A DNA stretch of 32,000 bases. It comes from Coriobacteriales bacterium OH1046. GTDB taxonomy: Bacteria > Actinomycetota > Coriobacteriia > Coriobacteriales > Atopobiaceae. The position numbers and the translations under genes are program-made. This document shows, piece by piece, positions 2,956-30,277 of this stretch. Location: NCBI GenBank assembly GCA_004010535.1, contig RQYE01000003.1, positions 192,936 through 224,935 of the forward strand, given 5' to 3'. The notes under the pieces are model-generated. The model did not search any database. It was not told the DNA's origin and worked only from the letters and a program-made list of their open reading frames with translations. The first letter of the stretch is position 1. The number at the start of each line of letters is the position of its first letter.

Positions 2956-2973
2956 GGCCTGCCTCCAGTCTTG

Positions 2974-3813
2974 TCAATCGAAGGGTACGAAATGAGGTTC
3001 CATGCGGTCGAAGGCGTATACGCCCTCGTATCCTATCGCATTGAGGACGTCCTGGGCCTCGCGGATACGGGAGCCCAGATGCCTTGGCATATGGGAATCG
3101 GAGCCCACGGTCAGGATGCGGCCGCCCAGATCGTAATGGAGCTCGAGGATCTCACGGCACGGCATGGGCCCGGCCATCCCATAGCGGAAGCCCGAGGTGT
3201 TGAGCTCGATGCCCTTGCCGTCGGCGATCACCTGCTCGAGGATGGCGGCGATGATGTCGCGGCTCTTCTCGAAGGGGTAGGGGCCTGCGGGGTCGTAGCG
3301 TTTGACATGATCCAGGTGCGCGAGCACGCTGTAGTGCTTGTAGGAGCGGACCACGTCGTAGAGCTCCTGGTAATACTCGCCGTTATAGGCTGCTTGGCTG
3401 CGGCCTTCCATGAATTCGTTGCCGTCGTACCAGAACTCGATGTCGCGTACCTGGTGGATGGAGAGGAGCACGAAATCGAGCGGCCAGGCTGCGAAGAGCT
3501 GCTCGTAGGACCCGATGGTATGGGTCTGGACACCGAACTCGAGGCCCGCCCTCAAGCGGATGCGGTCCGCGTACTCCTCCCGGAGCTCGGCGATTCTCGC
3601 GAAGTAGGCGGGATAGGCCACGTTGACCGCAAGCTCGCCGTCGTGGTTCAGCCGGATGGCGGGGGAGTCCCATTCGTCCTTCACACCGTAATCCACATGG
3701 TCGGTGAAGGCGAGCTCCTCGATACCCAGCCCGATGGCATCGCGCACGACATCCTCCATGGGATAGTCGGAGTCATCGGAGAACGCGGTATGGACGTGGT
3801 AGTCGTAGAACAT
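2974..3813 (-). CDS. PHP-domain phosphoesterase, histidinol-phosphatase HisJ/HisK family
   Basis: 279-aa ORF beginning MFYDYHVHTAFSDDS...FTDHVDYG. Later it has LAHLDH, IELNTSG and GSDSH, the metal-binding His/Asp pattern of the PHP family. Confidence 0.85.
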   Translation of the reverse strand: MFYDYHVHTAFSDDSDYPMEDVVRDAIGLGIEELAFTDHVDYGVKDEWDSPAIRLNHDGELAVNVAYPAYFARIAELREEYADRIRLRAGLEFGVQTHTIGSYEQLFAAWPLDFVLLSIHQVRDIEFWYDGNEFMEGRSQAAYNGEYYQELYDVVRSYKHYSVLAHLDHVKRYDPAGPYPFEKSRDIIAAILEQVIADGKGIELNTSGFRYGMAGPMPCREILELHYDLGGRILTVGSDSHMPRHLGSRIREAQDVLNAIGYEGVYAFDRMEPHFVPFD

Positions 3814-3894
3814 GGGAGCCTTCCTAGGCGGATCGCGGTGCGGTCGCGACGGCGGGGACGGGGATGCGCGGGGCTCGTTCCAAGGAGCGCGCCC

Positions 3895-5838
3895 TCATTC
3901 CAGCTCGAACGCGCCGGTGTAGAGCTGATAGTACGTGCCCTGGGCGGCGATGAGCTCGTCGTGCGTGCCGCGTTCGATGATGCGTCCGTGGTCGAGCACG
4001 ATGATGACGTTGGCATTGCGCACGGTCGAGAGGCGGTGCGCGATGACGAAGGTCGTGCGCCCGGCCATGAGGGCGTCCATGCCCCTCTGGACGATCTGCT
4101 CGGTGCGCGTGTCGATGGAGGATGTCGCCTCGTCGAGGATCATGACGGGCGGGTCGGCGACGGCTGCGCGCGCGATTGCGAGGAGCTGGCGCTGGCCTTG
4201 GGAGAGCGAGGCGGCGTTGTCGCGCAGCATGGTCTGATAGCCGTTGGGAAGGCGCCTGATGAAGCCGTCCGCACCGGCGAGCTTGGCTGCGGCGATGCAC
4301 TCCTCGTCGGTGGCCGGGAGGCGCCCGTAGCGGATGTTGTCCATCACCGTGCCCGTGAAGAGGTTCGTCTCCTGCAGGACCATGCCGAGCGAGCGGCGCA
4401 GGTCCGACTTGCGGATCTTGTTGATGTTGATGCCGTCGAGGCGTATCTTGCCGTCCTCGATGTCGTAGAAGCGGTTCAGGAGGTTGGTGATGGTCGTCTT
4501 GCCCGCGCCCGTCGCGCCCACGAAGGCGACCTTCTGGCCGGGTTTGGCGTAGAGCGAGATGTCGTGCAGGATCGTGTTGCCGGGGGTGTAGGCGAAGTCG
4601 ACGTGCTCGAGCACCACGTCGCCTGCGAGCGGCGTATAGGTGACGGTGCCGTCGTGATGGGGGTGCTTCCAGAGCCATCGGCCGGTGTCCTCGTGCGTCT
4701 CGCATATCTCGCCGCCTACGATCTTCGCGCGGTGCAGCTCGACGTAGCCCTCGTCGGCCTCGGGCTCCTCGTCGATGAGCGAGAAGAGGCGCTCGGCACC
4801 CGCAAGGCCCATGACGATGAAGTTGATCTGGCTCGAGATCTGGCCGATGGAGCCCGCGAAGCGCTTGGTGAGGTTCAGGAACGGGACCACGATATCGATG
4901 GAGAGGGCGAGGCCCGAGATGGAGAGGTTCGGGATGTGCGAGGCGAGCATGATGCCCCCTGAGAGCGCGACCACCACGTAGGCGAGGTTGCCGAGGTTCA
5001 TGAGGACGGGACCGAGGATGTTCGAGTAGGTGTTGGCCTTAGCCGCCGCTTCGCAGAGCTCGCCGTTGAGGACCTCGAAGGACTTCTCGGTCTCCTCCTC
5101 GTGGGTGAAGACCTTGATGACCTTCTGCCCGGTCATGGCCTCTTCGACGAAACCCTCGGCAGCGGCGATGTTGCGCTGCTGGGCGAGGAAGTAGTGCGCG
5201 CTCCTACCGCCCAAGACGCGTGTGAGCCACGCCATGATGGCCACCATGGCGATCACCACGAGCGCCATCCAGACCGAGTACCATATCATGATGAAGAAGA
5301 TCGACGCCATGGCGAGGGCCATCGTGAGGACGTTGGGAAGGGACTGGCTGATGAGTTGGCGGATGGCGTCGACGTCGTTGGTGTAGTAGCTCATGACGTC
5401 GCCGTGCTTGGTGCGGTCGAAATAGCTGATGGGCAGGCTCTCCATGTGCTCGAACATCATGTTGCGGAGCTTCATGAGGGTGCCCTGCGTGATGATGGCG
5501 CCGATCTGCTCGCGCGCCGCGATGAGCGCGATGGAGACGATGTAGATCGCGACGAGGCGACCGGCTATGCCCGCGATGGCGGGTGCCGCCCCGCTCCAGT
5601 CGCCGGACTCCCAGTACTCGCCGACCACGGCAAGCGTCTCCTGGAGGAAGATCGAGGGCAGCGATTGCAGGATCGCCGGCACGATGATGCAGACGATGGA
5701 CAGCGGGAGCAGCACGGGATAGAACTTGAACACGAGCCCGAAGATGCGCATGAGCGTGGCTCCGGGATTCTGGGCGCCCTTGGAGCGGCGCACGCGGCTC
5801 GACATGGGGCCGTTGACCTGCTTCTTCTCCTCTGCCAT
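3895..5838 (-). CDS. ABC exporter half-transporter (TMD-NBD) with canonical NBD
   Basis: 647 aa with an N-terminal 6-TM-like region. Walker A is GATGAGKTT, Walker B/catalytic Glu is MILDEATSSID, and the H-loop is IAHRLST. The signature motif reads LSQGQRQ, a variant of LSGGQ. Confidence 0.93.
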   Translation of the reverse strand: MAEEKKQVNGPMSSRVRRSKGAQNPGATLMRIFGLVFKFYPVLLPLSIVCIIVPAILQSLPSIFLQETLAVVGEYWESGDWSGAAPAIAGIAGRLVAIYIVSIALIAAREQIGAIITQGTLMKLRNMMFEHMESLPISYFDRTKHGDVMSYYTNDVDAIRQLISQSLPNVLTMALAMASIFFIMIWYSVWMALVVIAMVAIMAWLTRVLGGRSAHYFLAQQRNIAAAEGFVEEAMTGQKVIKVFTHEEETEKSFEVLNGELCEAAAKANTYSNILGPVLMNLGNLAYVVVALSGGIMLASHIPNLSISGLALSIDIVVPFLNLTKRFAGSIGQISSQINFIVMGLAGAERLFSLIDEEPEADEGYVELHRAKIVGGEICETHEDTGRWLWKHPHHDGTVTYTPLAGDVVLEHVDFAYTPGNTILHDISLYAKPGQKVAFVGATGAGKTTITNLLNRFYDIEDGKIRLDGININKIRKSDLRRSLGMVLQETNLFTGTVMDNIRYGRLPATDEECIAAAKLAGADGFIRRLPNGYQTMLRDNAASLSQGQRQLLAIARAAVADPPVMILDEATSSIDTRTEQIVQRGMDALMAGRTTFVIAHRLSTVRNANVIIVLDHGRIIERGTHDELIAAQGTYYQLYTGAFELE

Positions 5839-5843
5839 AGGGC

Positions 5844-7673
5844 CTACGCCCCCTCTCCGTCGGTGCCATCTATCCCGATCGCCGCCATCGCGGCGTCATG
5901 GGACTGCTTGTTCTGCGAGGTGTAGGTCTCGCGGTAGATCTCGGAGGTGCGCAGCAGCTCCTCGTGGGTGCCTATGGCGGATATGCGGCCGCCATCTATG
6001 ACGACGATGCGGTCGGCGTCCTCCACCGAGCTCGTGCGCTGGGCGATGATGAGCTTGGTGGTGGAGGGGATGAATCGCTTGAAGCCCTCGCGGATGAGCT
6101 TGTCGGTCTTGGTGTCGACGGCGCTCGTCGAATCGTCGAGGATGAGCACCTTCGGGCTCTTGAGCAGGGCGCGCGCGATGCACAGGCGCTGCTTCTGGCC
6201 GCCCGAGACGTTGGTGCCCCCCTGCTCGATGTAGGTGTCGTACCCGTTGGGCAGGAGCTGGATGAACTCGTCCGCCTGCGCGAGCTTGCAGGCCTCGACC
6301 ATCTCCGCGCGCGAGGCATCCTGCTTGCCCCACCGGAGGTTGTCCTCGATGGTGCCGGAGAAGAGGATGTTGCGCTGCAGCACCACGGCCACCTCGTTGC
6401 GCAGCGTGTCCAGATCGTATTCGCGCACATCGTGCCCGCCCACCTTGACCGAGCCGCAGGTGGCATCGTAGAGGCGGCTGATGAGTTGGATGAGGGTGGT
6501 CTTGGACGAGCCGGTACCGCCGATGATGCCGATGACCTCGCCGCTCTTGATGTGCAGGTCGATATCGTCGAGGGCCATGCGCTCGGACCCGGCGGAATAC
6601 CCGAAGCTCACATGGTCGAAATCGATGGAGCCGTCGGCGATCTCGCAGCGGGGGTTCTCGGGGTTCTTGAGGTCGGACTGCTCCTCGAGCACCTCGACGA
6701 TACGGCGGGCGCTCTCCTCGCTCATGGTGATTATGACGAAGATCATCGAGAGCATGTTGAGGCTCATGAGGATCGAGAAGCCGTAGGTGATGAGGGCCGA
6801 GAGATGGCCGATGGCAAGATCGGCACCCTGGCTCTGGATGATGGCATGCGAGCCGAAGTAGATGACGAACACGTACACGATGTTGATGCAGAGCTGCATG
6901 ATGGGCATGTTCCATGCGAGCAGGCGCTCGGCGTGCAGGAAGTCGCGGTAGAGATTCTCGGAGGAGGCGTCGAACTTCTCCTTCTCGTACTCCTCGCGCA
7001 CGTATGACTTGACCACGCGGATGCCCTTGATGTTCTCCTCGACGGTGTCGTTCAGGGCGTCGTACTTGCGGAAGAGGCGGCGGAAGATGGGCATGACGTA
7101 GGCGGCGACGCCGAAGAGGAAGGCGCCGAGGAAGATGGACACCACCACGTAGATCGCCGCGAGCGCACCTCCGGTGAGGAATGCCATGGAGATGGCGAAG
7201 ACCAGCATGAGCGGGCTGCGGATGGCGGTGCGGATGATCATCATGTAGGCCATCTGGACGTTGCTCGTGTCGGTGGTGAGGCGCGTCACGAGCGAGCTCG
7301 TGGAGAAGCGGTCGATGTTGCCGAACGAGAACGACTGGATGTTGTGGAACATGTCGCTCCGGAGGTTCTTGGCGAGGCCCGTGGCCGCCGTGGAGCAGGT
7401 GATGCCGGCGATCGTGCCGCAGGCGAGCGAGATGAGCGCCAAGGCCACGAGGATGAGGGAGTAACGGCCTATGGCGGCCATGCCCTGGCCCTCGTTGATC
7501 GCGTTGATGAGCTGCGCGGTGATGAAGGGGATGGAGCACTCGATGACGACCTCGCCCGAGACGAGGATGGGCGTCTGGATCGAGGGTCGCCGGTATTCGC
7601 GCGCGCTTCCGGCGATGCGGCGCATGATCTGGGGGAGGGTGAGGTGCGCGAGGGTCTTCGCATGCTGTTCCAT
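5844..7673 (-). CDS. ABC exporter half-transporter (TMD-NBD) with degenerate NBD
   Basis: 609 aa. Walker A is GGTGSSKTT and the signature is VSGGQKQR. Walker B is LILDDSTSAVD (Asp in place of the catalytic Glu) and the H-loop position reads IAQRTSS (Gln in place of His). Only a 5-nt gap separates it from the downstream partner. Confidence 0.93.
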   Translation of the reverse strand: MEQHAKTLAHLTLPQIMRRIAGSAREYRRPSIQTPILVSGEVVIECSIPFITAQLINAINEGQGMAAIGRYSLILVALALISLACGTIAGITCSTAATGLAKNLRSDMFHNIQSFSFGNIDRFSTSSLVTRLTTDTSNVQMAYMMIIRTAIRSPLMLVFAISMAFLTGGALAAIYVVVSIFLGAFLFGVAAYVMPIFRRLFRKYDALNDTVEENIKGIRVVKSYVREEYEKEKFDASSENLYRDFLHAERLLAWNMPIMQLCINIVYVFVIYFGSHAIIQSQGADLAIGHLSALITYGFSILMSLNMLSMIFVIITMSEESARRIVEVLEEQSDLKNPENPRCEIADGSIDFDHVSFGYSAGSERMALDDIDLHIKSGEVIGIIGGTGSSKTTLIQLISRLYDATCGSVKVGGHDVREYDLDTLRNEVAVVLQRNILFSGTIEDNLRWGKQDASRAEMVEACKLAQADEFIQLLPNGYDTYIEQGGTNVSGGQKQRLCIARALLKSPKVLILDDSTSAVDTKTDKLIREGFKRFIPSTTKLIIAQRTSSVEDADRIVVIDGGRISAIGTHEELLRTSEIYRETYTSQNKQSHDAAMAAIGIDGTDGEGA

Positions 7674-8147: not shown

Positions 8148-8260
8148 GGAGATCCTTTGCGTGCCGTCTGTTGTGCGCCCACCACTTTCCGCTTAGGCGA
8201 AGAAGATGTCAAGGTACCTAATGAAAAATATGCAGTCAATGAAATGCATTCGCAACGAAA
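8148..8260 (-). promoter_or_regulatory. Putative promoter/operator region of the marR-ABC string
   Basis: This is a locally AT-richer stretch upstream of the marR ATG. On the minus strand there are two TTGAC boxes (plus-strand TGTCAA at 8207-8212 and AGTCAA at 8234-8239). A short inverted repeat, ATGCA-N10-TGCAT (8230-8249), overlaps one of them. No convincing -10 element was seen. Confidence 0.3.
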
Positions 8261-8337
8261 GCCATCCAGCTGGTTGGATATCCGGGATCGGACCGTTCTC
8301 CATCGGAAGCTCATCGCCCCATCGGAAGGCTGGTTTG

Positions 8338-8379
8338 AAAGAAGAGAAAAAACCCGCAGGGTCCAGGGTACCCTGCGGG
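8338..8379 (-). terminator. Rho-independent terminator downstream of the amidohydrolase gene
   Basis: An 11-bp stem (8351-8361 pairs with 8369-8379, ACCCGCAGGGT/ACCCTGCGGGT) has a 7-nt loop. Read on the minus strand it is followed by TTTTTTCTCTTC (plus-strand A-tract 8341-8350). It lies about 67 nt after the stop at 8446. Confidence 0.8.
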
Positions 8380-8445
8380 TCGGATGCGGGAGGCCGATAC
8401 CAAGGCAGGAAGGAGAGAAAAGGATGGTGGCCTTCCCAGGCGAGC

Positions 8446-10197
8446 TCAGCCCTCGTAAACGACGTTGCCGTTGGAAATGGTGTAGAGCACGGCGATGTCC
8501 GAGATTTCCTTGACATCGCAGGACAGCGGATCCTTATCGAGAACGACGATGTCGGCGAACTTCCCTTCCTCGAGCGTGCCGGCCTTGTCCTCCCAGAATG
8601 CGGCATAGGCGCCGTTCACCGTGTACATCTGGAGCATCTCGTAAACGGTTGCGGCTTGATCGGCGTTGCGGGTGTAGACGTCGACCTGCTCGTCCTCGCC
8701 CGGATACGGCGAGCATTGGGTGGCACCGGCCTCGATGGCATGGAGGGGCGCGAAATCATAGGTGACCGGATAGTCGTTGGAGCCCGTGATCATGACGCCC
8801 ACGTCGATCAGATCGCGGATATGATACTCGGATGCGAAGCGCTCGGCACCGAACATCTGCTCCTCGAGCGGCGAGAAGAACGGATCGTAGTAGAACCACA
8901 TGGGTTGCATGCAGCAGATGATCTTGTTCTCAGCGGTGCGCGGCACATCCTCCTTGGCAACCAGGTTGTAGTGGGTGATCTTGTTGCGGACGTCGGGGTC
9001 GCCGTTGGCCTTCCTCGATTCCTCGTAGGCGTTTATGGCCATGCGCACGGAGGCGTCGCCCATGCAGTGCATCTGCACCTGGTAGCCGGCGGCGTTCATC
9101 TTGGTGGTGAACGCGGTCATCTCCTCCTGGGTGTTGGCGGGGGAGCTGACGTAGTCGGGGTCGGTACCGGCGGCCGGGTCATAAGGCTCGAGCAGATAGG
9201 AGGACTTGCCCTCGGGCACGCCGTCGACCTTGTGCTTGACCTGCTTGATAGTCAGCATGTCGGAGACATACCGCTGTTCGCTGCCGAGCCTTGCGATGGC
9301 CTCGTCGGCCGCCTCGGCGGTTGCATCGGAGAAGAAGTTGGCGTTGTAACGGACGGTCAGGGTTCCGTCTGCCGCCATCTCGGCGAGCAGGTCGCGCGGG
9401 ATCGAATCACCGCCGGAATCCATGCCGGTGATGCCGTAGGAGTTGGCCTCAGCGAGGAAGCCCATCACGGCCTTGCGGTAGTCCTCGTTGGTGTACTCGA
9501 AATCGGGCAGATAGCCGTCGATGATGGCCCCGCAATCGGAGAAATAGCCCGTGAGCTCACCGTCCCCATCTTTGTAGATGATGCCGGAGGGCGGGTTGGG
9601 GGTGTCTTTGGTGATCCCGCACAGCTCGATGGCGACATCGTTGAGGAACTGCCCATGGCCGGAGACGTCGCTGAGGGAGACGGGCTTGTCGCTGCACACC
9701 TCGTTGATCCAGTCGTTGGTGCCCTTGCTGTCGGGGAAGGCCTTGAGGTCGACGCCCATCCCCAGGTAGATATCATAGTTGGGATGCGCTGCGATGAAGT
9801 CGGCCAGAGCCTGCTTGTAGACTTCGAGATCGACATCGTAGTTCAAGAACGCGATCTCGGTCTCCTCGGTCAGGTACGGGCCGGGAGCATGGATATGCCC
9901 ATCGATGAAGCCGGGCATGGCGCAGGCGCCGCCGAGTTCGATGACCCTGGTGGCGTCGCCGATATAGGTATCGACCCCATCATCGGCACCCACGTAGACG
10001 AGCTTCCCGTCCTTGACGGCGAGCGCCTCGGCGTAGCTGCCCTCCTCGACCATCGTGATGATCGAGCCGCCGCGGATGACGAGGTCCGCCGCATCGATGG
10101 GCCCCTCTTCGACGCCTTTGTTGGAGCATGCGGCGAGGGTTGCGGCGCCGACTGCGGCGGCACTCAAAAATGACCTGCGGGTAAGCTGATCGGACAT
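8446..10197 (-). CDS. Exported (Tat signal, lipobox) metal-dependent amidohydrolase, Amidohydro_3/YtcJ-like family
   Basis: Motifs are GFIDGHIHAPG, MHCMGDASVR, GSNDYPV and ADIVVLDKDP. The N-terminus MSDQLTRRSFLSAAAVGAATLAACSNKG has a twin-arginine motif plus an LAAC lipobox. Start 10197 is preferred over the track start 10242 because GGAAGGAG lies about 6 nt upstream. Confidence 0.9.
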   Translation of the reverse strand: MSDQLTRRSFLSAAAVGAATLAACSNKGVEEGPIDAADLVIRGGSIITMVEEGSYAEALAVKDGKLVYVGADDGVDTYIGDATRVIELGGACAMPGFIDGHIHAPGPYLTEETEIAFLNYDVDLEVYKQALADFIAAHPNYDIYLGMGVDLKAFPDSKGTNDWINEVCSDKPVSLSDVSGHGQFLNDVAIELCGITKDTPNPPSGIIYKDGDGELTGYFSDCGAIIDGYLPDFEYTNEDYRKAVMGFLAEANSYGITGMDSGGDSIPRDLLAEMAADGTLTVRYNANFFSDATAEAADEAIARLGSEQRYVSDMLTIKQVKHKVDGVPEGKSSYLLEPYDPAAGTDPDYVSSPANTQEEMTAFTTKMNAAGYQVQMHCMGDASVRMAINAYEESRKANGDPDVRNKITHYNLVAKEDVPRTAENKIICCMQPMWFYYDPFFSPLEEQMFGAERFASEYHIRDLIDVGVMITGSNDYPVTYDFAPLHAIEAGATQCSPYPGEDEQVDVYTRNADQAATVYEMLQMYTVNGAYAAFWEDKAGTLEEGKFADIVVLDKDPLSCDVKEISDIAVLYTISNGNVVYEG

Positions 10198-10330
10198 ACT
10201 GGGCTCCTTCCATTCCCGACACGTTGCACGCGGCCTTTCCATGGGCCGTCGTTAGGGAAAGCAAAGCACGTCCGTGCAGTCATCCATGGGGTAGATGTTC
10301 GCAACTGGCGGTTCTAACCGGGTTGAGGGG

Positions 10331-18835: not shown

Positions 18836-19429
18836 ATGGCGCGCCTGCTCCTCCATGCCTGCTGCGGACCGTGCTCGCTCGAGCCGGTCCGCTCGCTCAT
18901 GGAGGAGGGCTATGAGCCCACGATCTGCTGGACCAATCCCAACATAGCGCCTGCTGCCGAGCATGAGCTGCGCCTCACGACGCTGCTCGATTGGGCGCGC
19001 GATACCGCCCACCTCGATGTCATCATCGCGGGCGACGACCGTGCGGCATGGGAGCGTACCGTCGCCCCGCATGGTTTCGACCGTCCTGCGCGCTGCCGCG
19101 CCTGCTACGCCCAGCGTCTCGGGGAGGCATGCCGCGTGGCGGCGGCGGAGGGGTTCACGTGCATCTCGACCACCCTTGCCGTCTCGCCCTACCAGCTCTT
19201 CGAGACCTGCACCGAAGAGCTCGTGCGCCTTGCCGGGGCCTACGGCCTCTCACCCGTGATCCGCGATTTCAGGCCGCTCTATCCCAACGCCACCCGTGCA
19301 TCGCGCGAACTGGGGATGTACCGTCAGAACTACTGCGGGTGCCGTTTCTCTGCCGCCGAGGCCCAGATCGAGCGCCAGCTCGCGCGCGACGCGCGCAAGG
19401 CCGGGAGGCCCTCGGGCCATGCGGGCTAG
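18836..19429 (+). CDS. queH: Epoxyqueuosine reductase QueH (DUF208 family)
   Basis: LLLHACCGPCS at the N-terminus, CRACY, and YRQNYCGCRFS near the C-terminus are the conserved Cys clusters of QueH. It lies immediately upstream of queA. Confidence 0.88.
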   Translation: MARLLLHACCGPCSLEPVRSLMEEGYEPTICWTNPNIAPAAEHELRLTTLLDWARDTAHLDVIIAGDDRAAWERTVAPHGFDRPARCRACYAQRLGEACRVAAAEGFTCISTTLAVSPYQLFETCTEELVRLAGAYGLSPVIRDFRPLYPNATRASRELGMYRQNYCGCRFSAAEAQIERQLARDARKAGRPSGHAG

Positions 19430-19439
19430 GCGATGGGCC

Positions 19440-20531
<1,092 letters not shown>

Positions 20532-22778: not shown

Positions 22779-23918
<1,140 letters not shown>

Positions 23919-24235
23919 GCTGTCCTCCATCCCCTGCGGGGCATACGGTTCCGACGGGGCTGGCCTTCCGCTCCGAGGGGTGCGCGCCCGGGGCCCATCT
24001 TCCCTGCGGGAGCGCCTTCGGAGAAGCCGGCATCATCCGCTCGGGCGATTTCCCAAAGGCCGGATGGTATTTTCCTGACGGCGGCATATAATGGAGCCGA
24101 TAAATCGATAAGGGGCCCCGCCCCGTCACCTCCGTGTGATCCGAGCATGAAAAGGCAGATTCCCGCCATGGCCATCATCAGGCTCCCCCTGTGGTATAGG
24201 GCTATCCGTACCGTTTACGCATACGATGCAGGGAT

Positions 24236-27200
24236 GTGGCCGTAATGCCGCACCCCACCCCACCCCGTCGTTGGGAGCTGCTCGACCAGCGTGGCGATGT
24301 CGAGATCGAGCTCGAGCGCGAGCTCGGTACCAGCGCTCTGGTTGCCCGCGTCCTCGCCGCGCGCGGCATCTGCGACATCGAGGCCGCGCGCTCCTTCCTC
24401 ACCCCGTCGCTCGATCGCGATTGGGCGGATCCGCATGAGATCCCCGGCATGGCCGAGGCTGCCGACAGGGTGGAGGCGGCCCTCAAGGGACATGAGACCA
24501 TCGCCATCTTCGGCGACTTCGATGTCGACGGCATGAGCTCCACGTGCCTGCTCACCCTCGGCCTGCGCGAGCTGGGCGGTGCCGTCATGCCCTATATCCC
24601 GCACCGCTTCGGCGAGGGCTACGGCCTGTCCGAGGAGGCGCTGAACCGCGTCATCGCCGATTGCGATCCCGACCTCGTCATAACGGTCGATAACGGCATC
24701 GCCGCCGCCGCCGAGGTCGCATGGCTGCGCTCCCAGGGTATCGATGCGGTCATCACCGACCATCACGAGCCGGGCGATCTGGTGCCCGCGGAGGTCCCCG
24801 TCACCGATCCCAAGCTTTCGGCCGCCTGCGCGTCGCGCGAGCTGGCCGGCGCGGGCGTCGCCCTCAAATTGGTGGATGAGCTGGGCAGGCGCATGGGCAA
24901 GCCCGGACTCTGGCGCCGCTACACCGATGTCGCCACGCTCGGCACGCTCTCCGACATGATGCTCCTCACGCCCGAAAATCGCGCGCTTGTCGCCGAGGGC
25001 ATCGAGCGCATGCGCGCGACCACGCGCCCGGGCCTCGTCGCCCTTGCCGCCACGGCCGGCGTCGATCTCGCCGCCATCACGGCCGATTCCCTGCCCTTCT
25101 CCATCATCCCGCGCCTCAACGCAGCCGGACGCATGGGAACCAGCGATATCGCCTTCGATCTGCTCCTCACCGATGATCCCGCCGAGGCGGCCGTCCTCGC
25201 GGGCAAGCTCGAGGAGATCAACAGCAAGCGTCGAGAGATCGAGTCCATCCTTTCCGACGAGGCGCTCGCCAAGGTCGAGGAGGGCTACGCGGGCGGACGC
25301 GTGGTCGTCGTGGGCGGCGCGGGCTGGCATGAGGGCGTCAAGGGCATCGTCGCCAGCCGCATCGTCAACCGCTACCACGTGCCCGCGCTGCTCTTCACCA
25401 TATCCGACGGCATCGCCCGCGGAAGCGGCCGCTCGGTCGGCAGCGTCGACCTGTTCCACGCTGTCGAGCAGTGCTCCGATATGCTCATCCGGTTCGGAGG
25501 GCATCCGGGCGCCGTGGGCGTTACCGTGGAGGAGGCGCGCCTGGACGAATTCAGGCAACGCCTCGAGAACGTCCTCTCGAAGCTCCCTGCAGAGCAGTTC
25601 ATCGACACGGGAGAAGTTACGGCCACGGTCTCGCTCGACGAGCTCACCGTCGAATCCATCGGCTCGCTCGAATGCCTGCAGCCGTTCGGGCAGGGCAACA
25701 AGAGGCCCCTGTTCGCCGCCTGCGGCGTCGGCATGTCCAATCGAAGCTGCGTCGGCCTTGCCGGTACGCACCTGCGCTTCATGGCGACGGACGGCGCCGC
25801 GTCGGTTCCCGCCATCATGTTCAGAGCGCCGGATGTCGACCGCCTCGCCGCTTACGATGGGGAGTGCGACATCGTCTTCGATGCGGTCAACGAGACTTGG
25901 CAGGGCCGTACGAAGGCCAAGCTCATGGTGCGCGACATCCTCATCCGCGCGGATGGCGTCCGCCTTCAGACGGGAAGGGCCGAAGGCTCCATCTCCGACG
26001 AGCTCTTCGACAAGGCCGCTGAGATCCTTGCACGCGACGAGTACGCCTCGATCGCCGATGCGGAGCGCTTCGTCACCAAAGTCGTGGGCGTCTCCTTCGA
26101 GGGACGCCAGCAAAAAGTCGCCGGGCTTTCCGAGGGATCCGAGCTCGCGGTGGTCCGCCAACCCGACAACCCCTACGATCCCCATGCCATGGCGATCATG
26201 ACCTCTGCGGGCGATCAGGTGGGGTTCCTGCGCCGCCAGATCGCCAGGGCCCTGGCACCGCTTGCCGATGCCGGGGCGCGCTACCGTGCCCGCGTCCTGC
26301 AGGTGACGGGCGGCGATCAGCGCTCGTGGGGCGTCAACATCGAGGTCGCACGCGTCGAGGACACCGGCGCGCGGGGCGGGGACGAGACGGGGGCCCGCCC
26401 CGAGCGCGCCCGCCTCTCCGCACTTCCAGCTGCTGAGCTCATCGACGAGCTGCGCAGGCGCATGATCGGCTCGAACCGGCTCCTTCCCGCCCAGGCCAAG
26501 ACGCTCGGACTTCTGGGCGACAGGCGCAGCAGCCTCTGCATCATGGCGACCGGTCGCGGGAAATCCCTCATCTTCCACCTGCATGCCGCGCGGACGGCAC
26601 TGCTCGAGAACAGGGCGAGCGTGTTCGTGTACCCGCTTCGCGCCCTCGTCGCCGATCAGTCGTTCCATTTGGCGGGGTCTTTCGGCGAGATCGGCATGAA
26701 GGTCGTCGTCCTCACGGGTGAGACGCCGCTCGACGAGCGCGCTGCGATCTTCTCGGAGCTGGCCGCCGGCGATGCGGACATCGTCCTCACCACGCCGGAG
26801 TTCCTCGCCATCCACAAGGCCCGCTTCGCCGAGGCGGGCCGCGTGGGTTTCGTCGTCATCGACGAGGCCCATCATGCCGGCCTCTCAAAATCGGGCAATC
26901 GGAGCGCCTATGCGAGCCTTCCCGAGGTGAGGGCGGCGCTCGGCGAGCCCACCGTCCTCGCGGTGACGGCAACCGCCGAGGATGCGGTCGCACAGGAGAT
27001 CTGCCGTCTCGCCGGTATCGATGCCGATTCGGTGGTGGTCGATCGGTCTATCCGCGATAACCTCCGCATCATCGATCATCGCAACGCCAAGGACCGCGAA
27101 TCCGAGCTGGTCTCGGTCGTCTCGCGGGGTGCGAAGTGCATCGTCTACGTCAACTCGCGCGAGCAATCCATATCGTTGGCGCGGATGCTGCGCCGTAAGA

Positions 27201-27913
27201 TCCCCGAGCTGGGCCGGTCCATCTCGTTCTACAACGCGGGGCTCACCCGCAGCGAGCGCACCCGCGTCGAGCGGGCGTTCAGGTCGGACGAGCTCTCCTG
27301 CATCGTCTCCACGAGCGCCTTCGGCGAGGGGGTCAACCTTCCCGATATCGCACACGTCATGCTCTACCACATGCCCTTCGGCCGCATCGAGTTCAACCAG
27401 ATGAGCGGCCGAGCGGGCAGGAATGGCGAGGATGCCGAGGTGCATATCCTGTTCGGTTCCAAGGACACCAAGATCAACGAGCGCATCATCGCAAGCTCGG
27501 CTCCCATGCGCGGCGAGCTGTCGTTGCTCTACCGTGCCCTCATGACGCTGTCCCATCGTGCCGTATCCTCCACGGGAGAGGCGGGCTTCTCCGAGTCGAA
27601 CGCCGCGATCGCCGATCTTGCGCGCTCCATCGACCCCAAGACCCCCATCGACGAGCGCTCGGTATCATGCGGCATCTCGATCTTCCGCGAGCTGGGTTTC
27701 CTCGCAACCACGGGCTTCGGCACGGCACGGCGCATAGAGATGGTAGAATCTCCAGTGCGCATGGATCTCGGTTCGTCGATCCGCTACCTCGAGGGGCTCA
27801 GGTCGCGTGAGGAGTTCGGCGCCTTCTCGACGTGGGTGCTCACAGCCTCCGCCGACGAGATGCTCGCTCAGATCAACAGGCCCATCACGCCGACGTTCGG
27901 CATCGGGGTCTAG
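24236..27913 (+). CDS. recJ: Single-stranded-DNA exonuclease RecJ fused to a HIRAN domain and a RecQ-family SF2 helicase core
   Basis: One uninterrupted 1225-aa frame. RecJ motifs are IFGDFDVDG, VDNG, ITDHHEP (24758-24766 = DHH) and FGGHPGAVG. The HIRAN-like block is VVGVSFEGRQQ...VRQPDNPYDPHAMAI...GFLRRQIARALAPLAD...VTGG. Helicase motifs are MATGRGKS (I), PLRALVADQ (Ia), VVIDEAHH (II), VTATA (III), STSAFGEGVNLPD (V) and QMSGRAGRNG (VI). The start is GTG 24236 or ATG 24245. Confidence 0.9.
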   Translation: MAVMPHPTPPRRWELLDQRGDVEIELERELGTSALVARVLAARGICDIEAARSFLTPSLDRDWADPHEIPGMAEAADRVEAALKGHETIAIFGDFDVDGMSSTCLLTLGLRELGGAVMPYIPHRFGEGYGLSEEALNRVIADCDPDLVITVDNGIAAAAEVAWLRSQGIDAVITDHHEPGDLVPAEVPVTDPKLSAACASRELAGAGVALKLVDELGRRMGKPGLWRRYTDVATLGTLSDMMLLTPENRALVAEGIERMRATTRPGLVALAATAGVDLAAITADSLPFSIIPRLNAAGRMGTSDIAFDLLLTDDPAEAAVLAGKLEEINSKRREIESILSDEALAKVEEGYAGGRVVVVGGAGWHEGVKGIVASRIVNRYHVPALLFTISDGIARGSGRSVGSVDLFHAVEQCSDMLIRFGGHPGAVGVTVEEARLDEFRQRLENVLSKLPAEQFIDTGEVTATVSLDELTVESIGSLECLQPFGQGNKRPLFAACGVGMSNRSCVGLAGTHLRFMATDGAASVPAIMFRAPDVDRLAAYDGECDIVFDAVNETWQGRTKAKLMVRDILIRADGVRLQTGRAEGSISDELFDKAAEILARDEYASIADAERFVTKVVGVSFEGRQQKVAGLSEGSELAVVRQPDNPYDPHAMAIMTSAGDQVGFLRRQIARALAPLADAGARYRARVLQVTGGDQRSWGVNIEVARVEDTGARGGDETGARPERARLSALPAAELIDELRRRMIGSNRLLPAQAKTLGLLGDRRSSLCIMATGRGKSLIFHLHAARTALLENRASVFVYPLRALVADQSFHLAGSFGEIGMKVVVLTGETPLDERAAIFSELAAGDADIVLTTPEFLAIHKARFAEAGRVGFVVIDEAHHAGLSKSGNRSAYASLPEVRAALGEPTVLAVTATAEDAVAQEICRLAGIDADSVVVDRSIRDNLRIIDHRNAKDRESELVSVVSRGAKCIVYVNSREQSISLARMLRRKIPELGRSISFYNAGLTRSERTRVERAFRSDELSCIVSTSAFGEGVNLPDIAHVMLYHMPFGRIEFNQMSGRAGRNGEDAEVHILFGSKDTKINERIIASSAPMRGELSLLYRALMTLSHRAVSSTGEAGFSESNAAIADLARSIDPKTPIDERSVSCGISIFRELGFLATTGFGTARRIEMVESPVRMDLGSSIRYLEGLRSREEFGAFSTWVLTASADEMLAQINRPITPTFGIGV

Positions 27914-27925: not shown

Positions 27926-30277
27926 ATGGACAAGCCGACCGGACAGGCCGAGGAGCGAGCCAAGGGCACGCCCGATGCCGCCAACTGGCGTCTTCTCGAA
28001 GAGGCCTGCGCGTCCTATCTCGATCCGTACGATGTCACCGCCATCAGGCGCGCGTACCGCTTCGCCGCAGATTACCATCGTTCCCAGAAGCGCAGGAGCG
28101 GCGAACCCTATATCAACCACCCCGTCGAAGTCGCCCTCATCCTCGCAGACGACCTCCATATGGATGCCGACTGCATCTGCGCTGCCCTCCTCCACGATAC
28201 GGTCGAGGATACCGACGCCTCCCTCGACGAGCTCACCGCCCGCTTCGGCGAGGACATAGCGGATCTCGTCGACGGCGTCACGAAGCTCACCAACATCGAG
28301 GTCTCATCCATGGACGAACGCCAGGCGCTCAATCTCCGCAAGATGTTCCTCGCCATGTCCAAGGATATCCGTGTGGTCATCATCAAGCTTGCGGACCGCC
28401 TGCACAACATGCGCACGCTTGCCGCGCTCAAACCCGAGAGGCGCCTGTTCAAGGCGCGCGAGACCATGGACGTCTACGCCCCGCTCGCCGATCGCCTGGG
28501 CATGTCCAGCGTCAAGTGGGAGCTCGAGGATCTGGCGTTCTTCTGGCTCGAACCCGAGGAGTACGAGCGCATCGCCCGCATGGTCCAGGACAGCCGCGCC
28601 CAGCGCGAGGCCGATACCGAGGCTGCCATCAAGACGCTCGATGACGAGCTCAGGAGCGTGGGGCTCACGGGTTATGCCATCAAGGGCCGCCCCAAGCACC
28701 TGTGGTCCATCTACCAGAAGATGACGCGCAAGGGCCGTGAGTTCTCCGATATCTACGACCTCATCGCGCTGCGCGTGATCACATCGTCGGTGGGCGATTG
28801 CTATTCGACGCTCGGCGCCGTCCACGCGCTCTGGCATCCCATGCCCGGCCGCTTCAAGGACTATATCGCCACGCCCAAGGCCAATCTCTACCAGTCGCTG
28901 CACACCACCGTCATCGGCCCCGACGGCCGCCCCATCGAGATCCAGATCCGCACCGAGGAGATGCACGAGGCCAGCGAATACGGTATCGCGGCCCACTGGC
29001 TCTACAAGAAGGACGGCAATTCGCGCGGCAGGATGAGCTCCGAGGATAGGAACGTCGATTCCACCATCCGCTGGATCCGGCAGAGCCTCAACTGGGCGGT
29101 CGAGGACGATATCGAGGATGCCCATGAGTACCTCGACGACCTCAAGGTCGACCTATTCGAGCACGAGATCTTCGTGTTCACGCCCAAGGGCGAGGTCATG
29201 AGCCTGCGTCGGGATTCCACGCCCCTCGATTTCGCCTATGCCGTCCACACCGAGGTGGGCAACCATTGCGTGGGCGCCAAGGTGAACGGCTCCGTCGTGC
29301 CCCTCACGCACAAGCTCGCGAGCGGCGACCGGGTCGAGATCCTCACCAACAAGAACGCCAAGCCCTCGCGCGACTGGATGTCCATCGTGGCAACGCCGTC
29401 CGCGCGCAACAAGATCCGCAAGTTCTTCACCGCCGAGAGCAAGACCGACGATGCCGAGCAAGGGCGCGGCGAGCTCGCCAAGGAACTGCGCAAGAAGGGT
29501 TACGGCATCTCCACGCAGCGCACGGTCAAAGCCCTCGCCAAGGTGCTCGAGCATTTCGATTACCGCAGCTCCGACGATCTCTTCGCCGCCATCGGCGCGG
29601 GCAAGCTCAATGCCAAGACCGTGGCCGCGAAGGTGAGCGAGGTCCTCGGGGAGGGCTCGCCCGAGCAGCTCGCCGCCGCGCGCAGGCAGGCCGAGCGCGA
29701 GGCTGCCATGAAGGCCGCTCTGAGCCAGGATATGCCGCTCATGCAGTCCTATGCCCTTGCGCGCACCGAGAAGGGCAAGAAGCACAAGAAGACCAGCTGC
29801 GGCGTCGTGGTCAAGGGCGATGCCGATCTGCTCGTCCATCTCGCGCACTGCTGCAATCCCGTGGCGGGTGACGAGATCGTGGGATTCATCACGCGCGGCC
29901 GCGGCGTGTCGGTGCATCGTGCCACCTGCCCCAACGTGGGCGCCCTCATGCAGAACCCCGAGCGCATGATCGACGTCGAATGGGACACCTCCGGTGCCAC
30001 CGAGTTCAGGGTCGAGATCGTGATCGAGGCCTCGGATCGCATGGGCCTGCTCAAGGATGTGACGATCGCCGTAGGCGAGGCCGGTGCCAACATCCTCTCC
30101 GCAGCCACCCAGGTAAGCTCCCAAGGTTTGGCGCGCCTGCGCTTCCTCGTAGCCATCTCCGATGCGAGCCTGCTCGATGCGCTGCTCGCGAGCGTGAGCC
30201 GCGTACCGTCCGTCTATGATGCGCGCCGCATCATGCCGGGAGAGGGCGCCAACCAGATGAGGCGGAGGATCAAGTGA
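27926..30277 (+). CDS. relA: Bifunctional (p)ppGpp synthetase/hydrolase RelA/SpoT (Rel)
   Basis: The HD hydrolase is HPVEVALIL...LLHDTVEDT. The synthetase is GRPKHLWSIYQKM...YDLIALRVI...FKDYIATPK. The TGS block is FVFTPKGEVMSLRRDSTPLDFAYAVHTEVG, followed by a C-terminal ACT-like domain. GGGGGAGG lies upstream of the ATG. Confidence 0.96.
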   Translation: MDKPTGQAEERAKGTPDAANWRLLEEACASYLDPYDVTAIRRAYRFAADYHRSQKRRSGEPYINHPVEVALILADDLHMDADCICAALLHDTVEDTDASLDELTARFGEDIADLVDGVTKLTNIEVSSMDERQALNLRKMFLAMSKDIRVVIIKLADRLHNMRTLAALKPERRLFKARETMDVYAPLADRLGMSSVKWELEDLAFFWLEPEEYERIARMVQDSRAQREADTEAAIKTLDDELRSVGLTGYAIKGRPKHLWSIYQKMTRKGREFSDIYDLIALRVITSSVGDCYSTLGAVHALWHPMPGRFKDYIATPKANLYQSLHTTVIGPDGRPIEIQIRTEEMHEASEYGIAAHWLYKKDGNSRGRMSSEDRNVDSTIRWIRQSLNWAVEDDIEDAHEYLDDLKVDLFEHEIFVFTPKGEVMSLRRDSTPLDFAYAVHTEVGNHCVGAKVNGSVVPLTHKLASGDRVEILTNKNAKPSRDWMSIVATPSARNKIRKFFTAESKTDDAEQGRGELAKELRKKGYGISTQRTVKALAKVLEHFDYRSSDDLFAAIGAGKLNAKTVAAKVSEVLGEGSPEQLAAARRQAEREAAMKAALSQDMPLMQSYALARTEKGKKHKKTSCGVVVKGDADLLVHLAHCCNPVAGDEIVGFITRGRGVSVHRATCPNVGALMQNPERMIDVEWDTSGATEFRVEIVIEASDRMGLLKDVTIAVGEAGANILSAATQVSSQGLARLRFLVAISDASLLDALLASVSRVPSVYDARRIMPGEGANQMRRRIK

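What the first reader, a model, noticed from the sequence alone, without database searches (positions are those of the whole stretch)
24236..27913. RecJ nuclease, HIRAN domain and RecQ-like helicase encoded as one 1225-aa polypeptide
Seen in the sequence: a single frame with no stop runs from 24236 to 27913. It contains, in order, a complete RecJ DHH/DHHA1 core (DFDVDG, VDNG, DHH, GGHPGAVG plus an OB-like region), a HIRAN-like block, and all SF2/RecQ helicase motifs (GRGKS, DEAH, TATA, SGRAGR). Established knowledge: in E. coli, RecQ unwinding and RecJ 5'-3' degradation act together to process gaps and stalled forks ahead of RecFOR/RecA loading. Canonical RecJ proteins are far shorter and have no helicase. 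Inference: this is a Rosetta-stone fusion that hard-wires the RecQ-RecJ partnership into one fork- or gap-resection machine. I am not aware of a characterised example. It sits in the conserved recJ slot directly upstream of relA, so it is probably the organism's only RecJ.
Basis: partly seen in the sequence, partly recalled or inferred. Interest (0 to 1): 0.72.

Follow-up and report, generated by a model that had tools for sequence, protein, structure and literature searches.

The report
RecJ nuclease fused to HIRAN–RecQ-like helicase
This gene really does encode one ~1,220-residue protein that joins the DNA-end-chewing nuclease RecJ to a 3'-end-binding HIRAN domain and a RecQ-type DNA-unwinding motor; it is conserved across a whole class of gut bacteria, is labelled only "RecJ" in databases, and appears uncharacterised.

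Summary
Window 24236-27913 (+) is one uninterrupted frame. The likely start is the ATG at 24245, giving 1222 aa. Profile searches give DHH, DHHA1, RecJ_OB, HIRAN, DEAD and Helicase_C in that order, followed by a 160-aa tail with no Pfam match. I modelled the tail at pLDDT 93 as a winged-helix-containing domain.

The RecJ half passes NCBI's RecJ equivalog cut-off. The helicase half is closest to RecQ, WRN and BLM in both sequence and fold. It fails the recQ_fam cut-off and has no Zn-finger and no HRDC domain.

The fusion is not an artefact. More than 200 full-length homologues exist. In 66 of 68 genome loci with a complete ORF, a near-complete RecJ and the helicase share one ORF, and rel follows closely in 73 of 80 loci. 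The family spans Coriobacteriia, Negativicutes, Peptococcaceae and Armatimonadota. All nine RecJ catalytic residues checked are invariant (223/223), and the ATPase motifs are intact in 213/223.

Best explanation: a single-chain 5'-end or gap resection machine. The RecQ-like motor moves 3'-5' and feeds the displaced 5' strand to RecJ, while HIRAN holds a 3'-OH end. This is inferred, not shown.

No paper describing the fusion was found. I rate it a new variant of a known kind, with interest about 0.6.

The parts
24245..27913 (+). Whole gene: RecJ-HIRAN-RecQ-like helicase fusion. It is 1222 aa from the ATG at 24245; the ORF opens at a GTG at 24236. The end coordinate includes the stop codon.
   Evidence: ORF and translation. 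The near-identical 1222-aa protein P0001.
24332..25939 (+). RecJ 5'-3' ssDNA exonuclease core. Contains DHH (24497-24946), DHHA1 (25298-25579) and the RecJ OB fold (25622-25936).
   Evidence: TIGR00644 recJ equivalog: 455.2 bits against a 396.9 cut-off, residues 33-568. Pfam DHH, DHHA1 and RecJ_OB. Nine catalytic residues invariant in 223/223 homologues.
25940..26065 (+). Variable linker between the RecJ OB fold and HIRAN.
   Evidence: Poorly conserved, gap-rich columns in alignment A1.
26066..26305 (+). HIRAN domain, a putative 3'-OH ssDNA-end-binding module.
   Evidence: PF08797: 47.1 bits against a 24.7 cut-off. HLTF HIRAN structures at E about 5e-6 with the NPYD motif aligned. The Asp is conserved in 188/223 homologues. 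Predicted as a beta-rich domain at pLDDT above 90.
26486..27427 (+). RecQ-like SF2 helicase motor: RecA lobe 1 (DEAD/ResIII, 26486-26989) and lobe 2 (Helicase_C, 27116-27427). Motifs 0, I, Ia, II, III, IV, V and VI are intact.
   Evidence: Pfam. NCBIfam recQ_fam and recQ are the best helicase models. PDB sequence search gives RecQ at 1e-33 and WRN at 1e-27. The top 50 Foldseek hits are all RecQ family. The Walker A lysine is kept in 213/223 homologues.
27431..27910 (+). Conserved 160-aa C-terminal domain: a helical hairpin, a winged helix and two helices, ending in the motif INRPIxP. It occupies the place of the RecQ RQC region but has no zinc-binding cysteines.
   Evidence: No Pfam hit. AF2 model at pLDDT 93.2, pTM 0.84. 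Foldseek gives only generic winged-helix hits, with E of 8.6e-3 or weaker. Conserved residues D, P, E and P.
27926..30277 (+). Downstream neighbour: bifunctional (p)ppGpp synthetase/hydrolase Rel, starting 12 nt after the fusion gene. The two are probably co-transcribed.
   Evidence: Pfam HD_4, RelA_SpoT, TGS and ACT. TIGR00691 at 779 bits. No terminator-like site between the genes. rel follows the fusion in 73/80 related loci.
22782..23918 (+). Upstream neighbour: housekeeping tRNA-guanine transglycosylase Tgt, with queA at 19296-20528 further upstream. This marks the conserved queA-tgt...recJ-rel housekeeping cluster.
   Evidence: TIGR00430 equivalog at 449.5 bits against a 306.75 cut-off; queA equivalog.

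Best explanation
The gene encodes the lineage's RecJ orthologue, permanently fused to a HIRAN domain and a RecQ-family 3'-5' DNA helicase with a zinc-less, winged-helix C-terminal domain.

Proposed mechanism:
1. The helicase half loads on the 3'-terminated strand at a double-strand end, a gap or a stalled fork, and translocates 3'-5'.
2. The complementary strand is peeled off with a free 5' end.
3. That 5' strand is threaded directly into the covalently attached RecJ ring and degraded 5'-3'.

Both activities move into the duplex in the same direction, so a single polypeptide can generate the 3' single-stranded tail, or the enlarged gap, that RecFOR/RecA needs.

The HIRAN domain, placed between the two enzymes, most likely grips the 3'-OH end of the tracking or nascent strand. 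That would target the enzyme to 3' ends or primer termini and possibly shield the end from 3' exonucleases.

Shown here: the domain identities, intact catalytic motifs in both enzymes, conservation of the fusion, and its housekeeping genomic position. Inferred: the polarities (from family membership), the coupling, and the role of HIRAN.
For: - Domain order and identity.
- The RecJ half is above the equivalog cut-off.
- All nine RecJ catalytic residues checked are invariant in 223/223 full-length homologues. Walker A, Walker B and the Arg finger are intact in 213/223. Both activities are therefore under purifying selection.
- The helicase's nearest sequence relatives are RecQ (1e-33) and WRN. 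The top 50 structural matches are all RecQ family, and bacterial RecQ cores align over 508-531 columns.
- HIRAN matches the HLTF HIRAN domain, including the NPYD motif. HLTF HIRAN is described as recognising the 3' end of ssDNA (PMC4666394).
- The HIRAN, motor and tail segment models as one confident unit, with pLDDT 93 and pTM 0.86.
- The gene sits in the housekeeping tgt...recJ-rel slot. It does so in 73/80 related genome loci, and 66/68 complete ORFs carry the full fusion.
- The family spans several phyla.
- Established biochemistry: RecJ alone resects 5' overhangs, but needs the RecQ 3'-5' helicase for blunt or 3'-tailed ends (PMC4846377, citing Morimatsu & Kowalczykowski 2014).
Against: - There is no biochemical or genetic evidence for any member.
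- The helicase fails the recQ_fam cut-off (164 against 219.8 bits) and lacks the RecQ zinc module and HRDC domain. Polarity and substrate preference are therefore extrapolated.
- Four clusters (Armatimonadota-type) have lost motifs I, II and VI yet keep RecJ and HIRAN, so unwinding is dispensable in some lineages.
- 28 of the 80 closest genome loci lack HIRAN, so HIRAN is not essential to the fusion.
- The same HIRAN-helicase module occurs free-standing in mobile-element replication modules, which hints at another ancestral role.
- The relative geometry of the RecJ hole and the helicase exit could not be modelled, because the protein exceeds the size limit.
Confidence: 0.62

Rival explanations
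1. The protein is a stalled-fork remodeller rather than an end-resection enzyme. By analogy with HLTF, HIRAN captures the 3' end of the nascent leading strand at a blocked fork. The RecQ-like motor then unwinds or regresses the fork, and RecJ trims the nascent lagging strand.
For: - HIRAN sits N-terminal to an SF2 motor, the same arrangement as in HLTF (PMC4666394).
- E. coli RecQ and RecJ are known to process nascent DNA at UV-blocked forks (Courcelle & Hanawalt 1999, as cited in PMC4846377).
- The tail contains a winged helix, the element RecQ-family enzymes use on branched DNA.
Against: - The motor is RecQ-like, an ssDNA translocase, and not an SNF2 dsDNA translocase.
- HIRAN is absent from a large part of the family, including Collinsella and some Olsenella, while the rest of the fusion is kept.
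- This rival overlaps heavily with the best explanation and cannot be separated from it in silico.
Confidence: 0.2
2. The helicase half is a defence or mobile-element helicase of the DpdF or PsyrT type. The fusion would then be an anti-phage or plasmid-directed nuclease-helicase, not a repair enzyme.
For: - The best PADLOC hits are DpdF (1.4e-56) and PsyrT (5.8e-47).
- Free-standing HIRAN-helicase genes lie beside DnaD-like initiator, partition and SSB genes in mobile elements (L003 and L086).
- A TGT-family gene lies upstream, and DpdA is TGT-like.
Against: - The PADLOC matches cover only the generic RecQ-like motor, positions 11-357 of 610.
- The upstream gene is the housekeeping Tgt equivalog (449.5 against a 306.75 cut-off), accompanied by canonical queA.
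- No other Dpd or PsyrA partner lies nearby.
- The RecJ half has no PADLOC hit.
- The locus is syntenic and vertically conserved between tgt/secDF and rel throughout Coriobacteriia. This is the opposite of a defence-island pattern.
Confidence: 0.05
3. The fusion is an assembly or sequencing artefact, or a recent pseudogene-like read-through of two adjacent genes (recJ plus a helicase).
For: Two related loci show disrupted copies: L057 with an 855-aa ORF and L077 with a 1026-aa ORF. Frameshifts therefore do occur in assemblies of this gene.
Against: - The same continuous ORF occurs in more than 100 clusters and on megabase-scale contigs.
- It occurs in 66/68 genome loci with complete ORFs.
- It occurs in homologues down to 30% identity in other phyla.
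- GC content is even across the junctions.
Confidence: 0.01

Closest known systems
RecJ plus RecQ of the bacterial RecF pathway (E. coli, D. radiodurans, B. subtilis), a two-protein system
   Same: Both have a DHH/DHHA1/OB 5'-3' ssDNA exonuclease and a RecQ-type SF2 motor. The known functional partnership is that RecQ unwinds blunt or 3'-tailed ends so that RecJ can resect (PMC4846377). The RecJ half here passes the RecJ equivalog test and occupies the recJ locus next to rel.
   Different: Here the two are one polypeptide. In D. radiodurans no direct RecJ-RecQ contact was found (PMC4846377). The helicase lacks the Zn-binding module and HRDC domain, falls below the recQ_fam cut-off, and carries an extra HIRAN domain.
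WRN (Werner syndrome protein), a RecQ helicase fused to an exonuclease
   Same: WRN also has an N-terminal exonuclease and a RecQ-family motor in one chain. WRN helicase cores are among the best sequence and fold matches.
   Different: The WRN nuclease is a DnaQ/DEDD 3'-5' exonuclease, of opposite polarity and from an unrelated fold. WRN keeps the Zn/RQC and HRDC regions and has no HIRAN domain. It is eukaryotic.
HLTF / Rad5 (HIRAN plus an SF2 motor)
   Same: A HIRAN domain lies immediately N-terminal to an SF2 ATPase. The HIRAN sequence matches HLTF HIRAN, including the NPYD motif.
   Different: The HLTF motor is an SNF2 dsDNA translocase with a RING insert and no nuclease. PMC4666394 states that no other fork-reversal SF2 enzyme is known to carry HIRAN.
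Helicase-nuclease end-resection machines (RecBCD, AddAB, AdnAB, eukaryotic DNA2)
   Same: They share the concept of a motor and a nuclease physically coupled to convert DNA ends into 3' tails.
   Different: Those machines use SF1 motors and PD-(D/E)XK (RecB-type) nucleases, and most are multi-subunit. Here an SF2 RecQ-like motor is joined to a DHH phosphoesterase in one chain.
Exonuclease-fused DinG (S. aureus, B. subtilis)
   Same: This is another bacterial SF2 helicase with an N-terminal exonuclease in one polypeptide (PMC12345164 and PMC12525004, seen).
   Different: It combines an XPD/DinG-type 5'-3' helicase with a DEDD 3'-5' exonuclease. The families and polarities differ, and it has no HIRAN domain.
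DpdF / PsyrT RecQ-like defence helicases
   Same: The motor core scores strongly against these PADLOC models.
   Different: Only the generic motor matches. No Dpd or PsyrA partners are present. The upstream TGT gene is the housekeeping Tgt, and the locus is housekeeping and syntenic.

Membership tests
RecJ (single-stranded-DNA-specific 5'-3' exonuclease, TIGR00644) | Whole-family profile score above the curated equivalog cut-off | tested here: met
   455.2 bits against a 396.9 cut-off. Residues 33-568 match profile positions 2-546 of 546.
RecJ (single-stranded-DNA-specific 5'-3' exonuclease, TIGR00644) | DHH-family metal-binding motifs (DxDxD, D, DHH, D) and the DHHA1 GGH motif | tested here: met
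   D91, D93, D95, D149, D172, H173, H174, D237 and H420 are present and invariant in 223/223 homologues.
RecJ (single-stranded-DNA-specific 5'-3' exonuclease, TIGR00644) | OB-fold domain closing the ssDNA-only hole | tested here: met
   PF17768 RecJ_OB: 70 bits against a cut-off of 27, residues 463-567.
RecJ (single-stranded-DNA-specific 5'-3' exonuclease, TIGR00644) | 5'-3' exonuclease activity specific for ssDNA | not testable with these tools
   Requires a biochemical assay.
RecQ family DNA helicase (TIGR00614 / TIGR01389) | SF2 motifs 0, I, Ia, II (DExH), III, IV, V and VI, with RecQ-type signatures (RxNL, YHAGL-like, QxxGRAGRDG) | tested here: met
   The motifs are visible in the translation and are invariant or nearly invariant in alignments A1, A3 and A4. 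The alignment to C. sakazakii RecQ spans chain residues 32-377.
RecQ family DNA helicase (TIGR00614 / TIGR01389) | Profile score above the curated family cut-off | tested here: not met
   recQ_fam scores 164.2 bits against 219.8. The recQ equivalog scores 163.7 against 640.2. Only profile positions ~5-347 match.
RecQ family DNA helicase (TIGR00614 / TIGR01389) | Zn-binding Cys4 module of the RQC region | tested here: not met
   The 160-aa tail has a single Cys and no alignment to the RecQ Zn region.
RecQ family DNA helicase (TIGR00614 / TIGR01389) | Winged-helix domain C-terminal to the motor | tested here: inconclusive
   The AF2 tail model contains a winged helix. Foldseek on the tail alone gives only generic WH hits at E of 8.6e-3 or weaker. 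In the 633-aa model, bacterial RecQ cores align over 508-531 columns, but with high rmsd.
RecQ family DNA helicase (TIGR00614 / TIGR01389) | HRDC domain (present in most bacterial RecQ) | tested here: not met
   There is no HRDC Pfam hit, and the protein ends right after the tail domain.
RecQ family DNA helicase (TIGR00614 / TIGR01389) | 3'-5' ATP-dependent DNA unwinding | not testable with these tools
   Requires a biochemical assay.
HIRAN domain (PF08797) | Profile score above the gathering threshold | tested here: met
   47.1 bits against 24.7, residues 611-690.
HIRAN domain (PF08797) | Similarity to the structurally defined HLTF HIRAN domain, including the NPYD 3'-end pocket motif | tested here: met
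   2mzn, 5bnh, 4xzf and 4s0n match at E about 5e-6, with RQPDNPYDPHAMAI aligned to RDPNNPYDKNAIKV. The Asp is conserved in 188/223 homologues, but the Tyr is variable. The assignment of pocket residues rests on my own recollection of the HLTF structures.
HIRAN domain (PF08797) | Binding of a free 3'-OH ssDNA end | not testable with these tools
   Requires a binding assay.
Dpd (7-deazaguanine DNA modification/restriction) system helicase DpdF | Full-length match to DpdF, plus presence of DpdA (TGT-like) and other dpd genes | tested here: not met
   NCBIfam DpdF scores 107 bits against a 550 cut-off. PADLOC hits cover the motor only. The neighbouring TGT gene is the housekeeping Tgt equivalog and sits with queA. 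No other dpd genes are in the window.

The most novel reading that the evidence does not exclude
This family could be a third, previously unrecognised architecture of bacterial DNA-end-resection machine. It would be a self-contained single polypeptide: an SF2 RecQ-like motor, a DHH nuclease and a HIRAN 3'-end clamp. It would do the job of RecBCD, AddAB or AdnAB in Coriobacteriia and several Bacillota and Armatimonadota lineages. In this reading HIRAN acts as a built-in 3'-end protector, which would explain how a RecQ/RecJ-type pathway can work without inactivating 3' exonucleases. It would also be the first HIRAN-coupled RecQ-type helicase, linking bacterial repair to HLTF-style recognition of 3' ends.
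Probability: 0.25. Interest if true: 0.8.

Novelty: new variant of a known kind. Interest (0 to 1): 0.6.

Why it matters
RecQ and RecJ are the textbook helicase-nuclease pair of the RecF pathway, yet how they are physically coordinated is unclear. In D. radiodurans no direct contact was detected (PMC4846377).

A natural, conserved covalent fusion gives a Rosetta-stone argument that the two act on the same DNA molecule at the same time. It also provides a tractable single-protein system for structural and single-molecule study of coupled unwinding and degradation.

The embedded HIRAN domain brings a 3'-end sensor, known mainly from the eukaryotic fork remodellers HLTF and Rad5, into a bacterial housekeeping repair enzyme.

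The family appears to be the RecJ of common human and animal gut genera such as Olsenella, Collinsella and Parafannyhessea. Current annotation as plain 'RecJ' hides half of the protein's function. Natural ATPase-dead and HIRAN-less variants offer ready-made dissection of what each module contributes.

Tried and rejected
- **Full-length structure prediction:** The geometry between RecJ and the helicase is therefore unknown.
- **Artefact or frameshift explanation:** rejected on conservation.
- **Dpd or defence-island explanation:** rejected. The neighbour is the housekeeping Tgt with queA, the PADLOC matches cover the motor only, and the RecJ half has no PADLOC hit.
- **Specific identity for the tail domain:** Foldseek against the PDB gave only generic winged-helix hits, none at E of 1e-3 or better. 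Pfam found nothing.
- **Literature:** six full-text searches combining RecJ, HIRAN, RecQ, fusion, Rosetta stone, Coriobacteriia and RecQ-like found no description of this architecture. PMC4663267, on RecJ C-terminal domains, does not mention helicase fusions. The Millman et al. preprint matched only through its reference list. The library covers open-access papers only, so this absence is not proof.
- **Rfam scan of the whole window:** no hits.
- **Promoter and terminator scan around the gene:** nothing above chance.
- **Viral collection scan:** only two close relatives. One is a host-type fusion, and the other is a mobile-element standalone gene.

Full report
**Observation**

The window contains one + strand ORF at 24236..27913, 1225 codons from a GTG. 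The fourth codon is an ATG at 24245. The near-identical database protein P0001 (listed as 100% identity) is 1222 aa, so 24245 is the probable start. GC content is even across the gene, at 0.63-0.74.

**Domain content**

- DHH, residues 88-237
- DHHA1, 355-448
- RecJ_OB, 463-567
- HIRAN, 611-690
- DEAD/ResIII, 751-918
- Helicase_C, 961-1064

The last ~160 residues have no Pfam match.

NCBIfam scores residues 33-568 at 455 bits against the RecJ equivalog TIGR00644, whose cut-off is 396.9. The N-terminal half is therefore an orthodox RecJ.

The best helicase models are recQ_fam and recQ, at about 164 bits each. Both are below their cut-offs (219.8 and 640.2), and only the motor part of each profile matches.

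A sequence search of the PDB with residues 600-1225 returns C. sakazakii and E. coli RecQ (1e-33 and 7e-31), then WRN, RECQ4, RECQ1, RECQ5 and BLM. In every case only the two RecA lobes are covered.

**The C-terminal tail and the whole helicase half**

I built a 45-sequence alignment of the tail and modelled it with AF2, giving pLDDT 93.2 and pTM 0.84. The model is a helical hairpin, a helix-helix-beta-hairpin (winged helix) and two further helices.

Foldseek against the PDB gave only generic winged-helix proteins: MarR, Fur, KAT6A-WH, Cdc6-WH and ROQ. The best E was 8.6e-3 and TM was 0.41 or lower. The tail is therefore a real, conserved domain with no specific solved relative.

A second model covered HIRAN, motor and tail (633 aa, 74-sequence alignment A4). 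It was equally confident, at pLDDT 93.0 and pTM 0.86. All 50 best PDB matches to it are RecQ-family enzymes. The bacterial RecQ catalytic cores align over 508-531 columns, close to their whole length.

The last 13 residues (INRPITPTFGIGV) have low confidence in the tail-only model but reach pLDDT ~95 in the larger model. This suggests the conserved C-terminal peptide docks onto another domain.

The tail has a single cysteine, so the RecQ Cys4 zinc module is absent, and there is no HRDC domain. I therefore call the motor "RecQ-like": derived from the RecQ family, but not a member by the curated criteria.

**HIRAN**

The HIRAN segment matches the solved human HLTF HIRAN domains at E about 5e-6. 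RQPDNPYDPHAMAI aligns to RDPNNPYDKNAIKV. From my own knowledge of the HLTF structures, the Tyr-Asp of this motif lines the 3'-OH pocket. PMC4666394 describes HIRAN as recognising the 3' end of ssDNA. It also notes that no other fork-reversal SF2 enzyme is known to carry the domain.

**Is the fusion real and conserved?**

A word-indexed search found more than 100 clusters with the identical Pfam architecture at 56-100% identity. Several lie on megabase contigs. All that carry a name are called simply "single-stranded-DNA-specific exonuclease RecJ": Parafannyhessea umbonata, Atopobium fossor, Olsenella uli and Atopobiaceae MAGs.

An exhaustive HMMER search with the HIRAN-helicase-tail half gave 332 representatives (50% clusters) at E of 1e-30 or better. 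Most full-length ones are 1050-1300 aa with the match in their C-terminal half, down to 30% identity. Named distant members come from Armatimonadota, Peptococcaceae, other Bacillota, Actinomycetota MAGs and the Negativicute Selenobaculum/Anaerosinus gibii, which has a complete genome.

The best 80 are all Coriobacteriia, and the closest is an "Actinomycetes bacterium" MAG at 84%.

In those 80 loci:
- 68 have a complete ORF boundary.
- RecJ sequence is in the same ORF as the helicase in all 68.
- The RecJ part is near-complete in 66. L057 and L077 look frameshifted or truncated.
- rel follows within about 320 nt in 73 of 80.
- HIRAN is detectable in 52 and absent in 28, including Collinsella, Thermophilibacter and some Olsenella.

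**Selection on the catalytic sites**

In 223 homologues of at least 1000 aa, all nine RecJ metal-binding and catalytic residues checked are invariant. The Walker A Lys, the DE of motif II and the motif VI Arg are intact in 213-216. The HIRAN Asp is present in 188, with 22 gaps. Ten sequences, in four clusters including the Armatimonadota MAG protein P0250, have lost motifs I, II and VI while keeping an intact RecJ and HIRAN.

**Genomic context**

The local gene order is queA (19296-20528), HPr, tgt (22782-23918), the fusion, rel (27926-30277, 12 nt downstream) and an MBL-fold hydrolase. tgt and queA pass their housekeeping equivalog cut-offs, and rel passes TIGR00691. This is the classic queA-tgt-(yajC-secDF)-recJ-rel housekeeping cluster. 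No recQ lies in the 32-kb window.

**Free-standing relatives**

The HIRAN-helicase-tail module also exists without RecJ:
- P0173 lies directly after secF, in the recJ position, in L001 and L002.
- P0145 (L003) lies beside a gene with a sub-threshold DnaD_N match (22.4 bits against a cut-off of 27), with a small HTH_3 gene about 3 kb away.
- A 648-aa gene in the predicted viral contig L086 lies near genes for a partition protein and a DnaD-like loader/initiator upstream and SSB downstream.

So the module is an independent evolutionary unit that also serves mobile-element replication or recombination.

**Mechanism**

Established biochemistry says RecJ degrades ssDNA 5'-3' through a hole that admits only ssDNA. 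It can start alone on 5' overhangs, but needs the 3'-5' helicase RecQ to open blunt or 3'-tailed ends (PMC4846377).

If the fused motor keeps RecQ polarity, it tracks the 3'-ended strand into the duplex while the displaced strand presents its 5' end to the attached RecJ. Both activities advance in the same direction, so covalent coupling is geometrically coherent. The product would be a 3' tail or a widened gap for RecFOR/RecA.

HIRAN, between the two enzymes, would hold a 3'-OH end. That could be the end of the tracking strand, giving loop formation, targeting and protection from 3' exonucleases. It could instead be a nascent 3' terminus at a gap or stalled fork.

I put about 0.6 on the coupled-resection model. 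I put about 0.2 on a more fork-specific, HLTF-like role, which overlaps with it. The specific role of HIRAN is the weakest link. The domain identities and conservation are shown; the polarity, the coupling and the HIRAN role are inferred.

**Rivals rejected**

An artefact is excluded by conservation. A defence role was considered because DpdF and PsyrT are the best PADLOC hits and a TGT-family gene lies upstream. However, the hits cover only the motor, the RecJ half has no PADLOC hit, the TGT gene is the housekeeping Tgt next to queA, and the locus is syntenic across the class.

**Novelty**

Six full-text searches found no description of a RecJ-HIRAN-helicase or RecJ-RecQ fusion. The RecJ C-terminal-domain paper does not mention one. 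The proteins are in public databases, but they are annotated only as RecJ.

All the parts are known and their partnership is known. The covalent architecture, the HIRAN insertion and the zinc-less winged-helix tail are new. I therefore rate it a new variant of a known kind, with interest 0.6.

**Not resolved**

Three things remain open:
- whether the same genomes also carry a canonical recQ, a second recJ, or RecBCD/AddAB;
- the three-dimensional relation of RecJ to the motor (the size limit blocked this);
- any biochemical activity.

Noticed in passing
Related proteins P0242/P0277, P0243 (with P0270-P0276), P0245 and P0250 (Armatimonadota MAG); equivalent to window residues ~766-1061 (window 26540-27427): A clade of full-length fusions has lost helicase motifs I, II and VI (for example ISPRSGGER in place of MATGRGKSL, and FEVAD in place of IDEAH). 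It keeps all RecJ catalytic residues and the HIRAN Asp. The ATPase-dead motor is apparently retained as a structural or DNA-binding module.
   Followed up: partly
Loci L035, L043-L045, L048-L050, L055, L056, L059, L063-L067, L071-L074 and L076-L084 (Collinsella, Thermophilibacter, some Olsenella); also P0092 (Olsenella uli, 1117 aa): 28 of the 80 closest genome loci encode the RecJ-helicase fusion without a detectable HIRAN domain (ORFs ~1026-1284 aa, typically ~1111-1200). Atopobium fossor P0099 has a degenerate HIRAN. HIRAN has therefore been lost repeatedly, or was gained after the fusion.
   Followed up: partly
L086:4977-6923 (IMG/VR contig IMGVR_UViG_2837169743_000001); L003:265-2193: A free-standing HIRAN-RecQ-like-tail gene sits in mobile-element replication modules. 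In L086 it lies near genes for a partition protein and a DnaD-like loader/initiator upstream and SSB downstream. In L003 it lies beside a gene with a sub-threshold DnaD_N match, with a small HTH_3 gene about 3 kb away. This hints that the module fused to RecJ has a mobile-element relative or origin.
   Followed up: partly
L001:632-2533 and L002:631-2532 (Logan contigs): A standalone HIRAN-helicase (P0173, 633 aa) lies directly downstream of a SecF C-terminus, where recJ normally sits. It has no RecJ domains and is followed by an alpha/beta hydrolase instead of rel. This may be a lineage in which the RecJ half was lost or moved.
   Followed up: no
window 27875-27910 (last ~13 residues, INRPITPTFGIGV): The conserved C-terminal peptide is poorly ordered in the tail-only model (pLDDT 65-88) but reaches pLDDT ~95 when HIRAN and the motor are included. 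It probably docks onto another domain of the same protein. Its contacts could not be inspected.
   Followed up: no
window 23919-24244, compared with loci L009, L011, L018-L020, L037-L039 and others: In this genome and its two closest relatives, tgt lies only ~230-330 nt upstream of the fusion. In many other Coriobacteriia it lies 2.2-3.8 kb upstream, leaving room for yajC-secDF. The secDF block therefore seems to have been lost or moved from this position in the window's lineage.
   Followed up: no
window 1828-2955 (- strand): A 375-aa protein combines an N-terminal GNAT acetyltransferase with a circularly permuted YpsA SLOG domain (PF12694, 1.2e-37). This is an unusual two-domain combination that I did not pursue.
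   Followed up: no
window 1804-4962 (+) and 8206-10173 (+): Two very long ORFs (1052 and 655 aa) have no Pfam hits. They are shadow ORFs of real - strand genes in this high-GC genome: GNAT-cpYpsA, a PHP protein, two ABC transporters (3895-5838 and 5844-7673) and an amidohydrolase (8446-10242). They are not genes.
   Followed up: yes
L057 (MAG, uncultured Actinomycetota) and L077 (Collinsella sp. MAG): Two related loci carry shortened ORFs (855 and 1026 aa). In L057 the N-terminal RecJ part lies outside the ORF. These are probably frameshifts or assembly errors rather than natural split genes.
   Followed up: no
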